From Gekko japonicus (taxonomy: Eukaryota): a DNA stretch of 64,000 nucleotides. A program made the translations under genes and the position numbers. The stretch lies in assembly GCF_001447785.1 (NCBI RefSeq), contig NW_015172560.1, positions 371,240-435,239 of the forward strand, written 5' to 3'. Below the pieces are notes generated by a model, which searched no databases, was not told the origin of the DNA, and worked only from the letters and a program-made list of their open reading frames with translations. Positions 57,259 to 63,022 of the stretch are shown one piece after another (position 1 is the stretch's first letter; each line of letters starts with the position of its first letter).

Positions 57259-58201
57259 TCATCTTTAAAGCAGTTCTTACTTGCACTGTGATACTTGCCA
57301 CCATTGCAATTTTCTAATAGTATCAAGAATGGATGCGATATTATGGGATTACTAATTAATACACACATATCAGATCAACTCCCAAGCATCAGACTGAGAA
57401 TGACTTTGAAGGCCCATGAAAACTACAGACCTCAAGAACGCTTTGGAAATGGTGAAAATTCTCACATAGTATCTTAACCTGGAGGTAAGGATCATTTCTG
57501 AAAAAATGCATTAACTGGGAATATTATTTGCTGGGAGATGCAAGATGGATACACTCTGTTGGTTAGTCACATTTCACCTGCTTTTCATATTATCTTCTGA
57601 ATTCTTTATAAATTGGTGTCTTAAAGGATTCTGTTTATCTTATTGTCAGATGGAGATATGTAGATTTTCTCATGGTCTCCAATGCTATTAATTGACTACA
57701 AATGCAAATTGAAATCTGTAGATGGTTACCATTGGATGTTTTCCTTTTAGAGCAATGCTAATTCAGAAATCAATGTGATGACATAAATCTGCTAAAATAA
57801 TCAAGAAAATAATTATCAAATTAAATAATTTAACAATTATTGTGAAATTATCATTCAATAATAAATTGTTGAATAGCTAATAATTGCAATTATTATTAAA
57901 TTATTAATAAAGCCTGTAATCTTTTCCCAGCATTTCTTGCTGATTTTCAGTCCAAAAGCCCTCAAGATACGCAGGCTACAATACTGACTGTAGTTATACT
58001 AACTAAATACCATCATAATCAATAAGATTTAAGTGACTGAACTGCAAGAGGTATTACAGCCATGGTCTAATGAAACATGCAGATGTGTTTGGACATAACT
58101 GGTATGAAAATGGCTCTAATCACCCTGATTGATGATCGTCACTTGGAGGGTTAGATGGGGGAGTGCATCCCTGGTCATTCCTCTGGATCTCTCAGTAGCT
58201 T

Positions 58202-59780
58202 AAAAAAAATTTTTTTAAGGAATTTTATTGAAGAAAGAATTTTATAATTTTACCAACATCAAAATCAATTAATAATATAAAAAACAAAACTTCACATGCA
58301 CACTTTGTCTTCTTCTTCATCTTCCTTCTTCTTACTTCTCCCAAAATTATTACAAAGTATTATTTATAAATTTTCAAGCAGTCTAAGCTCATTATAGTAA
58401 TTTACAATATATTGACAAATTACTCTTGAACTGAATCATAATCATGATTAATCTCAGTCCTCGGAGGCCTCAAGGGTCAGGAGGGTATAATAGGCCCTCC
58501 TTCCAGGGACTGATTGGTCCTGGGGGAACGTACCCAGACATTCGCCACAATCCCACCACTCATTAGCTTGACAAAATTATTGTATATTACCCCAAACCCC
58601 AAATTGTTATATTGAGTCCACACTCTTCAAAATCTTCATGGTCTTCAGAAGTACAAACCCGAGTCATTTTAGCTGACATGAGAGGTGAGCGCTCTTTCCT
58701 TTTGCCAGTTCTAATTTCTTGAGATTCAGAAGAGGAAGGATTTAAAGCGGCCAGCATTATTTCATCTGAGACAGAGTCATAAGCAAAATAGGAAGTTGAG
58801 CCCCGTTGAACGCATAGCTTGCCCATACGGAGCCATCGGTATTTTATTCCAAGATCCCGCAGTTTGGCTGTGGTGCTTTTAAGATATCTTCTTATCTTTA
58901 AAAATTCAGGAGGGAGGTCTGGAAAGACTTGAATCTTCCCCCCCCTGGAAGCCAAGGCCACCCCTTGCCCTAGAGGAATTTCTGTTGTGTTCGAAAGTCT
59001 TTGAATTCTGCTAGTATATCTCTAGTATATAGTGAGGAAGTAGATTCTTCACATACCTTTCCGACACGATAAACTCTCCGTAGGAGGGGCATGAAACCGG
59101 CCTCCAGGTTTAGAGTGCTCGCCAGCCAATTTGCCAGAAATATATTCAGCTCTGTTTCAGTTTCAGCGTTTGCTTCAAACCCCCTGAACTTCAAAGAAAG
59201 CTCACGATTGTGATGATCCAGAGACAGGATACGCTCCCTGGCCCAGGCATCTGCAGTTTTCGTAGATAATTGCCTTTCAAGCTCTGTAGCTTTAAGAAGA
59301 GCCATGTCTGCTTTATGGTTTGTTTGCTTTTGGAGCTCTTCTAATTTGTCCATGCGTTGGAATGCTGGCTTGAGCATTTCTGTGATATTGTTTCTCAACT
59401 CCTGACATTGTTTAGTTAATGCATGCATCAAAAAATTTGTAGTGAGTGGGGTCTCTTCAGCCATTTGTTCACCTCAGCCGACAGGCTGACTGGCTCCAGA
59501 CTTTAGGCAGACTGCTTTCAATTCCCACCGACTGGTTTCCCGCCCAAAAGCTCCACTAAATAAAACAGCCCTTCCCGCCCAGGAAGTGACTCTCCCTCCT
59601 GCAGCATTCTGGGGCAGATCTCCTCACAGCCTTGATGGACTTCCTGTCCTCTCTAGGGAGCTGCCCTCTGACTGCTGGTTGGAGGCGTGTGGGGGGGGGA
59701 ATGAGGAGGAGACTAGGCCAAGGCCTGCCTCAGGTTTCATGGTCTCCTCCTATCTGGCCAGTTAGTTGCAGACACCCCCC
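58202..59780 (-). mobile_element. ORF1-only L1-derived retroelement (HAL1-like), full length, ORF1 frameshifted
   Basis: G-run 5' end; ~315-bp 5' UTR; L1 ORF1p-like reading frames 59464-58970 and 58961-58587; AATAAA and A-tail; 13-bp TSD ctctcagtagctt. Confidence 0.85.
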
Positions 59781-60099
59781 CTCTCAGTAGCTTTTGATAC
59801 CATCAGCCATGGGGTTCTGGAAAGGCTGGCTGATTTGGGATTGGAGTTCACCATGCTTTGGTGGTTCCACACCTGTCTGGCTGTCTATTTTTAGAACGTG
59901 GTGCTGGCAGATTGATGCTGGCCCTCTGATAGTTATGCTGAGAAATCCCACACCATTCTGTTCTGTGCCCCATGCCGTTTAACACTGGGAAAGATTGGGG
60001 ATTTGGAGTGAAGTGCCCACATCTCTATTTCTTCTTAACAGCTGAGGGTTTGTGAGAAAGTTTTTGATATGGATGACAAATAGTCTACGGTTTGAGTGG

Positions 60100-60446
60100 C
60101 TGTTGAATATTGCATGGTTTTACCGTGTATGACAGATACACTTTTAACAATTCTGAATAATATGACAGCGAACTTCCTATTGGTCGCTTCGTAACAGCGA
60201 CCAATCAGAACGGTACCATTCCCTAGGAGGGAAAGACTCCCATTGGTCCTTAACTAAGCAATCTCATTGGTTGTTAATTGTAAATAGGCGTGGCTACATT
60301 AGCCCGGTTATGTTTAAAAGGAGCATAAGCTCCCACTGTTTTCTGTTCTGGTTTCTTACTGAGTTGAGTGCTTGTTCGTTACTTCCAATAAAGCTGAATC
60401 ACTTGCTGAATCACTCTAAGAGTTCTTTGTTAGCGCGATCAAACAT
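60100..60446 (+). mobile_element. Probable solo LTR
   Basis: Several CCAAT/ATTGG boxes, TATA-like tttaaaa, AATAAA, ends ...aaaca; no clear TSD, so the 5' boundary is uncertain. Confidence 0.5.
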
Positions 60447-62873: not shown

Positions 62874-63022
62874 GAGAGCCAGTTTGGTGTAGTGGTTAAG
62901 TGTGCGGACTCTAATCTGGGAGAACCGGGTTTGATTCCCCCACTCCTCCACTTGCACCTGCTGATGTGACCTTGGGTCAGTCACAAGCTCTGGCACAGCT
63001 GTCCTTGAGAAAGAGCAGTCTC
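62874..63022 (+). mobile_element. Squam3 SINE, 3'-truncated
   Basis: Intact head gagagccagtttggtgtagtggttaag; no tail. Confidence 0.85.

What the first reader, a model, noticed from the sequence alone, without database searches (positions are those of the whole stretch)
58189..59793. Complete ORF1-only half-L1 (HAL1-like) retroelement in a squamate
Seen: 13-bp TSD ctctcagtagctt (58189-58201 and 59781-59793) brackets 1.58 kb with a G-run 5' end, a 5' UTR, an L1 ORF1p-like frame (coiled coil; NRELSLKFRGF and RVYRVG RRM-like motifs; KIQVFPDL...GIKYRW CTD-like motifs) broken by a net frameshift near 58940-58975, ~385 bp of 3' sequence, AATAAA (58224-58229 on minus) and an A-tail. No ORF2 is present. 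Established: HAL1 elements encode only ORF1p and borrow ORF2p in trans; they are best described in mammals. Inference: this may be an independent squamate HAL1 family.
Basis: partly seen in the sequence, partly recalled or inferred. Interest (0 to 1): 0.7.

Follow-up and report, generated by a model that had tools for sequence, protein, structure and literature searches.

The report
Old lizard half-L1 lineage, damaged copy
This is a broken copy of an old, many-copy family of short jumping genes in a scaled reptile, likely a gecko, that keep only LINE-1's RNA-binding gene and likely borrow the copying enzyme from complete LINE-1s, a design so far described mainly in mammals.

Summary
Real, and HAL1-like, but this copy is not complete. 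The 13-bp TSD, AATAAA and L1-type ORF1 are confirmed. A related organism holds the empty site.

The genome has dozens of relatives: full-length copies are ~1.5 kb, share both ends, often carry TSDs, and none continues into ORF2. Their ORF1s form one clade (57 of 57 rows) with three deep lineages, apart from 36 L1-tier ORF1s. Synonymous sites are near saturation while frames stay open (dN/dS 0.14 for the closest pair), so ORF1p was likely needed in cis.

After 21 native bases, 285 nt of a solo-LTR family replace 208 nt that held the ORF1 start and 39 codons. That junction is unique and absent from two other samples: a private allele or an assembly error.

New detail: a predicted three-way-junction RNA ~100-150 nt after the ORF1 stop is kept in all three lineages. 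This genome's L1 spacers hold a covarying junction too, but homology was not shown.

No squamate HAL1 paper was found; Repbase/Dfam could not be checked. The scan noted other HAL1-like families in this genome before.

The parts
59781..59793 (.). Target-site duplication, 5' side of the element
   Evidence: empty site read through in organism B
59760..59780 (-). Native 5' end of the family (G-run plus 15 nt; 18 of 21 nt match L002 and L008)
   Evidence: the same 21 nt lie in the locus contigs of X1 and X2
59475..59759 (-). 285-nt internal piece (nt 43-326) of an ~870-bp solo-LTR family (TG...CA ends, 5-bp TSD), in place of 208 nt of the element's 5' UTR and ORF1 start; unique to this copy; private allele or assembly error
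   Evidence: (1 junction match in the genome); X1 and X2 contigs leave the window at 59760
58607..59473 (-). L1-type ORF1 remnant (codon ~40 to the family stop; coiled coil, RRM, CTD, basic tail); broken by an 8-nt deletion (~58972), a 1-nt insertion (58938-58945) and a 2-nt deletion (~58626)
58530..58536 (-). GGTAYGT-like motif kept in all three lineages, just upstream of the stem; role unknown
   Evidence: GTA invariant in 29 of 29 rows
58455..58512 (-). Predicted three-way-junction RNA in the 3' UTR, kept in lineages A/B, C and D with different helix sequences
58224..58606 (-). 3' UTR ending in TTCTTCAATAAA (poly(A) signal 58229-58224), the family's common 3' end
58202..58223 (-). Tail: 7-nt spacer, A7, T8
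   Evidence: X1 and X2 read an A-run here
58189..58201 (.). Target-site duplication, 3' side of the element
   Evidence: junction spanned by contigs of X1 and X2
59794..59890 (+). Older RT-like repeat split by the insertion (LSVAFDTISHGVLERL; left half ends at 58188). The L2/CR1 label is recalled from the motif, not tested; no Pfam hit
   Evidence: paralogous uninterrupted copies seen as loose ends

Best explanation
The window holds one dead copy of an old lineage of ~1.5-kb elements that carry only an L1-type ORF1 and likely move as HAL1-type non-autonomous retrotransposons, borrowing endonuclease and reverse transcriptase from this genome's complete L1s. Shown: shared 5' and 3' ends, 10-19-bp TSDs, A-rich tails, no ORF2, an ORF1 of human-ORF1p fold, a single clade with three deep branches, purifying selection on ORF1 between branches, and coexisting L1s with intact ORF2. 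Inferred: transcription from an internal promoter in the ~113-nt G-run-led 5' UTR; ORF1p made in cis coats its own RNA; L1 ORF2p supplied in trans primes on the tail at T/A-rich sites (TPRT); one origin by loss of ORF2 from a lizard short-5'UTR, long-spacer L1, independent of mammalian HAL1. Speculative: the conserved 3'-UTR three-way junction helps the RNA engage ribosomes or ORF2p. The LTR piece in this copy most likely came after insertion, as an allele-specific templated replacement or an assembly error.
For: Copies: 50 matches at about 40 loci (40 of 558 candidates scored). Of the 29 other top loci, 14 run from the common 5' start to the common AATAAA end (1.30-1.74 kb) and 12 of these have a TSD; 20 of 40 copies across lineages gave a TSD. 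No ORF2: 19 of 20 fetched hits of the >=44%-identity tier have no ORF2-like match downstream and the 20th has a weak one 2.6 kb away, against 19 of 20 in the 34-41% tier. 0 of 20 broken or 3'-less copies continue into ORF2 in L1 order. Partner L1 ORF2 matches human ORF2p at E=7e-184. ORF1 identity: profile of 6 HAL and 16 L1 ORF1s vs human ORF1p RRM-CTD E=6e-12; model of HAL copy L121 vs 2YKP E=1.8e-9. Tree: HAL 57 of 57 rows on one branch, SH-aLRT 100. With 26 database proteins added it falls among this genome's L1 ORF1s (support 85-94). Selection: A vs B dN/dS 0.14 (0.10-0.20), dS 0.71; A/B vs C vs D synonymous sites saturated at 51-60% protein identity; within lineages 0.41-0.76. Empty site in organism B.
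Against: Mobilisation in trans is not tested; no tool here can. Nesting inside the L1 radiation is not starred (SH-aLRT 85-94, quick trees, no bootstrap), and only 150 of 5010 and 150 of 11429 candidates were scored, so a closer parent L1 could be unsampled. No sequence link was found between the HAL 3' UTR and any L1 spacer or 3' UTR, nor between HAL and L1 5' UTRs beyond length and G-run, so how ORF2 was lost is unknown. Within-lineage dN/dS is below 1 (CpG decay or hidden sub-masters; not separated). The closest copy pairs differ by 4-11%, so there is no sign of present activity. Half of the copies tested gave no TSD (several loci were cut short or interrupted).
Confidence: 0.88

Rival explanations
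1. Each copy is an ordinary L1 cut short by premature polyadenylation in the spacer or by later deletion; there is no self-propagating ORF1-only lineage.
For: L1s of this genome have 500-1000-nt spacers after ORF1, so short transcripts could arise.
Against: No ORF2-bearing L1 lies inside the HAL clade. The best L1 ORF1s are only 33-42% identical. The 3' UTR matches no L1 spacer. 45 places share the same 29-nt 3' end. 0 of 20 broken copies run into ORF2.
Confidence: 0.04
2. The copies are processed pseudogenes of one or more domesticated host genes derived from ORF1 (L1TD1-like), which would also explain the purifying selection.
For: Purifying selection between lineages and near-star-like copies within them fit a host source gene too.
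Against: Three parallel lineages plus a ladder of sub-lineages, each with an L1-style G-run start and an L1-length 5' UTR. No intact, near-master source copy among the scored hits for lineage A. Synonymous saturation between lineages fits repeated retrotransposition.
Confidence: 0.05
3. For this copy only: the LTR piece is a recruited new 5' UTR or promoter, captured by template switching during insertion, as in L1 5'-UTR replacement.
For: It lies inside the TSDs, in sense to ORF1, with short similarity (GCTG/GAG) at its downstream junction.
Against: The junction occurs once in the genome. The element's native first 21 nt precede it and the ORF1 start is lost. The same insertion in two other samples leaves the window sequence exactly at 59760, so the piece was not part of the inserted molecule unless those alleles changed later.
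Confidence: 0.05

Closest known systems
HAL1 (half-L1) of placental mammals and marsupials (Smit 1999; Bao and Jurka 2010, not held, seen only through passages of PMC5753468, PMC3627910, PMC5322556, PMC2241872)
   Same: ORF1 only, poly(A)-type tail, TSDs, L1-derived, long-kept ORF1 coding capacity (guinea pig 29-44 Myr per PMC3627910), presumed dependence on L1 ORF2p.
   Different: Squamate host. ORF1 is 33-42% identical to this genome's own L1 ORF1s but only 16-17% to human ORF1p in the structural alignment, so an independent origin is inferred (no mammalian HAL1 was in my trees). Short ~113-nt 5' UTR and 1.5-kb length. Three coexisting deep branches. Conserved predicted RNA junction in the 3' UTR. 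Rat RNHAL1 is 98% identical to an active L1 (PMC2241872); this lineage has no close L1 parent.
Lizard 'clade 2' L1 families (Boissinot and Sookdeo 2016, PMC5381506; passages and section 10 read)
   Same: This genome's partner L1s share the design: short 5' UTR, long G-rich spacer, APE+RT ORF2. The HAL 5' UTR has the same length as theirs (101-133 vs 111-118 nt) and a G-run start.
   Different: The HAL elements lack spacer-plus-ORF2. Placement in Anolis clade 2 was not tested by tree, and the paper's clade-2 5' consensus is not matched exactly. The paper found no shared spacer structure; here the L1 spacers show a covarying junction.
HeT-A and Ag-Sponge (ORF1-only non-autonomous LINEs of the Jockey and CR1 clades; passage of PMC5786205)
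   Same: Same strategy: keep ORF1, borrow the reverse transcriptase.
   Different: Different LINE clades and hosts. That paper treats them as possibly bipartite (5' and 3' parts of the parent); here no L1-derived 3' part was detected.

Membership tests
HAL1 (ORF1-only non-autonomous L1 derivative) | Encodes an L1-type ORF1p (coiled coil, RRM, CTD) | tested here: met
   Profile vs human ORF1p E=6e-12; Foldseek top 11 hits all human ORF1p; Pfam alone negative
HAL1 (ORF1-only non-autonomous L1 derivative) | No ORF2 between ORF1 and the tail | tested here: met
HAL1 (ORF1-only non-autonomous L1 derivative) | Multi-copy family that propagates in the short form (shared ends and junction) | tested here: met
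   26 matches to the 5' pattern and 45 to the 3' pattern, controls 0
HAL1 (ORF1-only non-autonomous L1 derivative) | TPRT hallmarks: A-rich tail, variable 10-19-bp TSD, T/A-rich target | tested here: met
   TSD in 20 of 40 copies tested; empty site; target preference judged by eye, not by statistic
HAL1 (ORF1-only non-autonomous L1 derivative) | ORF1 kept under purifying selection | tested here: met
   dN/dS 0.14 between A and B; medians of real-copy pairs between groups 0.14-0.24 (saturated pairs dropped)
HAL1 (ORF1-only non-autonomous L1 derivative) | Mobilised in trans by L1 ORF2p | not testable with these tools
   Intact-ORF2 L1s coexist; no assay
Mammalian HAL1 families by descent | ORF1 descends from a mammalian L1 lineage | tested here: not met
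   ORF1 groups with this genome's L1 ORF1s; nearest named proteins are from geckos; no mammalian HAL1 sequence was in the tree, so the test is indirect
Bipartite non-autonomous LINE | 3' part homologous to the partner's 3' UTR | tested here: inconclusive
   No profile match above noise, but divergence is past synonymous saturation
Annotated Repbase/Dfam family | Matches a deposited consensus | not testable with these tools
   No such library is held
Squamate host | Carries the squamate-restricted SINE Squam3 | tested here: met
   Window 62874-62986 matches, by eye, Squam3B-type consensus lines in the supplements of PMC7983390; 3B is reported for Gekkota and Lacertoidea

The most novel reading that the evidence does not exclude
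Lizard L1s carry a conserved three-way-junction RNA in the spacer after ORF1, and this half-L1 lineage kept that junction when it lost ORF2 because it is the cis signal that lets an ORF1-only RNA capture ORF2p in trans. The lineage would then be a natural minimal system (5' UTR, ORF1, junction, tail) for how non-autonomous protein-coding elements overcome L1 cis preference, and it survived as three parallel branches for longer than synonymous sites stay alignable.
Probability: 0.2. Interest if true: 0.68.

Novelty: new member of a known kind. Interest (0 to 1): 0.42.

Why it matters
HAL1 elements are described from mammals. An independent, long-lived squamate lineage shows that the ORF1-only strategy recurs where many L1 families coexist. 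It also adds a clean selection signal that ORF1p is needed in cis even when ORF2p is borrowed. The conserved RNA fold gives a testable handle on trans-mobilisation. The kind itself is known, this copy is a dead and partly foreign fossil, and the scan has flagged other HAL1-like families in the same genome, so the surprise is moderate.

Tried and rejected
- Pfam on window and sister ORF1 frames: no L1 family. Even L1-tier ORF1s reach Transposase_22 only at E 0.015-0.089 (2 of 5), so the miss is a sensitivity limit.
- Single-sequence searches of the protein collection and PDB found nothing.
- The ORF2 search named only fish and frog L1s at ~30% identity, which does not place the host.
- Rfam on the element and on 6 loci: nothing at gathering level; no ribozyme.
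- Origin of the 3' UTR from an L1 spacer or 3' UTR: no profile match above shuffles.
- 5' UTR profile of L1s vs 27 HAL 5' UTRs: best 4.6 bits vs 3.6 in shuffles, rejected as evidence.
- A covariance model of the L1 spacer junction found no HAL junction in 15 HAL loci (only an antisense hit at E=5 and a partial hit at E=7.3), so homology of the two folds is not shown. The long and short arms also come in opposite order.
- RNAalifold on the 29 HAL segments recovered only the outer stems because the lineages are out of register.
- Expression: no RNA holder listed; sparse reads on both strands, mostly from other copies, in X20 and X21; no verdict.
- The script failed on an option and gave a tree without HAL rows; redone, where the careful search did not finish and the quick tree was used.
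- Bao and Jurka 2010 is not held.
- Literature searches listed no paper on a reptile HAL1; some searches were swamped by unrelated reptile papers. Subscription journals, Repbase Reports and bioRxiv supplements were not searchable.

Full report
1. Observation. The 13-bp repeat, the six-G 5' end, AATAAA at 58229-58224 and the quoted ORF1 motifs are at the stated places. The insertion splits an older RT-like repeat (reading LSVAFDTISHGVLERL on the plus strand; the L2/CR1 label is recalled, Pfam gave nothing). A contig of organism B (run X14) covers 59781-59959 with 6 differences in 179 nt and continues into the window's left flank, which is the empty site. Samples X1 and X2 of organism A carry the insertion at both junctions. 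The frameshift is an 8-nt deletion at ~58972 plus one extra G at 58938-58945. A 2-nt deletion at ~58626 also shifts the last codons. The tail is A7 then T8.

2. The 5' part is foreign. Relatives match the element only from about position 308 on and share a different ~230-nt 5' part among themselves. The window keeps the first 21 nt of that part. It then has 285 nt that are nt 43-326 of an ~870-bp repeat with TG...CA ends and 5-bp TSDs (exact in 15 of 21 copies with both ends found), a solo LTR. This replaces 208 nt, 117 of them coding, including the start codon (3 of 4 aligned copies; the fourth has a deletion there). The downstream junction occurs once in the genome. The locus contigs of X1 and X2 follow the window to 59760 and then carry 31 and 40 other letters, with no cover of the 14 LTR bases offered; those letters were not shown. 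The piece is therefore a private allele or an assembly error, and I cannot tell which.

3. The family. A DNA search scored 40 of 558 candidates and gave 50 matches at 73-95% identity. Of the 29 other top loci, 14 run from the common start to the common end (1.30-1.74 kb) and 12 of them have a TSD. Patterns for the two ends of lineage A/B gave 26 and 45 matches, controls 0. A protein search (150 of 5010 candidates scored) gave two tiers. Of 20 fetched hits at 44-70% identity, 19 have no ORF2-like match downstream and one has a weak match 2.6 kb away; of 20 at 34-41%, 19 have sense ORF2 matches, 18 of them beginning 0.6-1.1 kb downstream. That ORF2 matches human L1 ORF2p over 1240 residues (E=7e-184). 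Twenty broken or 3'-less copies were fetched: none continues into ORF2 in L1 order. Across lineages 20 of 40 copies gave a 10-17-bp TSD, mostly starting at an A-rich site after T (by eye; several loci were cut short).

4. The protein. Pfam misses these ORF1s, and most L1-tier ORF1s as well. A profile of 6 HAL and 16 L1 frames hits human ORF1p RRM-CTD at E=6e-12. An AlphaFold model of the open-frame HAL copy L121 (mean pLDDT 71) shows a long helix, an RRM and a CTD, and its top 11 Foldseek hits are human ORF1p.

5. History. In a quick maximum-likelihood tree (57 HAL copies with at least 200 readable codons, 3 dropped; 36 L1-tier ORF1s, of which L099 has a gap where ORF2 would lie; 2 database proteins) all HAL rows form one branch (SH-aLRT 100) with three deep lineages, A/B, C and D; the window copy is in A. 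With 26 further database proteins the branch falls among this genome's L1 ORF1s on a long stem (support 85-94, not starred). The two named proteins among the ten best database hits are from geckos, and the window holds a Squam3B-type SINE, a squamate marker (PMC7983390, passages and supplement lines). Between A and B, dN/dS is 0.14 (0.10-0.20) at dS 0.71. Between A/B, C and D synonymous sites are saturated (or nearly, dS 3.9) at 51-60% protein identity. Within lineages it is 0.41-0.76. The closest copy pairs differ by 4-11%, so no very young copy was seen. The window copy is 5.9-7.1% from four sisters. That is somewhat more than the 3.4% flank difference to organism B would suggest; the short sample, CpG decay or ancestral polymorphism could explain it.

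6. A conserved RNA fold. The 3' UTRs of the lineages align across groups mainly at 60-170 nt after the stop (A/B vs C 12-20 bits; D 2-4 bits). There, 29 segments (of 35 UTRs: 5 skipped when the anchor motif was not found, 1 dropped for a deletion) fold with median z of -1.8, -2.2 and -3.9, against about 0 in three control windows. By my count of the printed structures the outer stem forms in 27 of 29 and both inner hairpins in 22 of 29, with different helix sequences in each lineage; the second hairpin is weak in A/B. This is three independent lineages only, and no formal covariation test was possible. The L1 spacers hold a covarying junction at a similar place. A model of it does not find the HAL fold, and no sequence link to spacers or L1 3' UTRs was found. 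Rfam has no match.

7. Mechanism. Shown: anatomy, copy family, absence of ORF2, selection on ORF1, coexisting complete L1s. Inferred from established L1 biology: internal promoter, ORF1p acting in cis, ORF2p in trans, TPRT. Speculative: a role for the junction. The rivals (truncated ordinary L1s, pseudogenes of a domesticated ORF1 gene, promoter capture for the LTR piece) are each about 5%.

8. Comparison and novelty. All testable defining features of HAL1 are met. Descent from mammalian HAL1 is not (indirect test). HAL1 is described for mammals in passages of PMC5753468, PMC3627910, PMC5322556, PMC2241872 and PMC8535693, and grouped with HeT-A and Ag-Sponge in PMC5786205. The primary paper was not held. 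Seven searches listed no reptile HAL1 paper; Repbase and Dfam could not be checked. The scan's index holds 16 notes that fit 'HAL1' in this genome and 66 that fit a HAL1/half-L1/ORF1 word search across at least 22 genomes. None was found by sequence, so they are probably other families; I did not check them. Verdict: new member of a known kind, interest 0.42; the RNA-signal reading has probability 0.2 and interest 0.68.

Noticed in passing
L139:5481-5565 (-) and 16 other L1 loci; weaker in L095, L098, L101, L102, L104, L107, L110: The ORF1-ORF2 spacer of this genome's L1s holds a conserved, covarying three-way-junction RNA: 89% of cells paired, 13 of 23 pairs with two-sided changes, 0 of 500 shuffles as high in covariation score (structure derived from the same rows). 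The model finds the sense-strand spacer in 7 of 12 more distant L1 loci (E 0.003-5). PMC5381506 reported no shared spacer structure.
   Followed up: partly
L032:1459-2333 and 28 other loci: An abundant ~870-bp solo-LTR family (TG...CA; exact 5-bp TSD in 15 of 21 copies with both ends found), 92-95% alike; class (Gypsy or ERV) not determined.
   Followed up: partly
window 62874-62986 and ~26698: tRNA-derived SINE heads; the 62874 copy matches Squam3B-type consensus lines of PMC7983390.
   Followed up: yes
window 60167-60400: Another very high-copy repeat begins about 370 nt from the element (summed contig depth above 280,000 in X1 and X2); not identified.
   Followed up: no
L212 (G000:C10571): A HAL copy split inside ORF1 by a 3.6-kb insert that carries L1 ORF2 pieces on the same strand.
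   Followed up: no
window 58202-58216; L004 and L008 tails: Tails of several lineage-A copies contain T-runs in the A-tail; at the window locus two other samples read A where the window reads T.
   Followed up: partly
L092-L111, L132-L151: The genome holds many divergent L1 families with intact ORF1 and several with intact ORF2 frames of 1190-1330 aa, all with a 111-118-nt 5' UTR where it could be located.
   Followed up: partly
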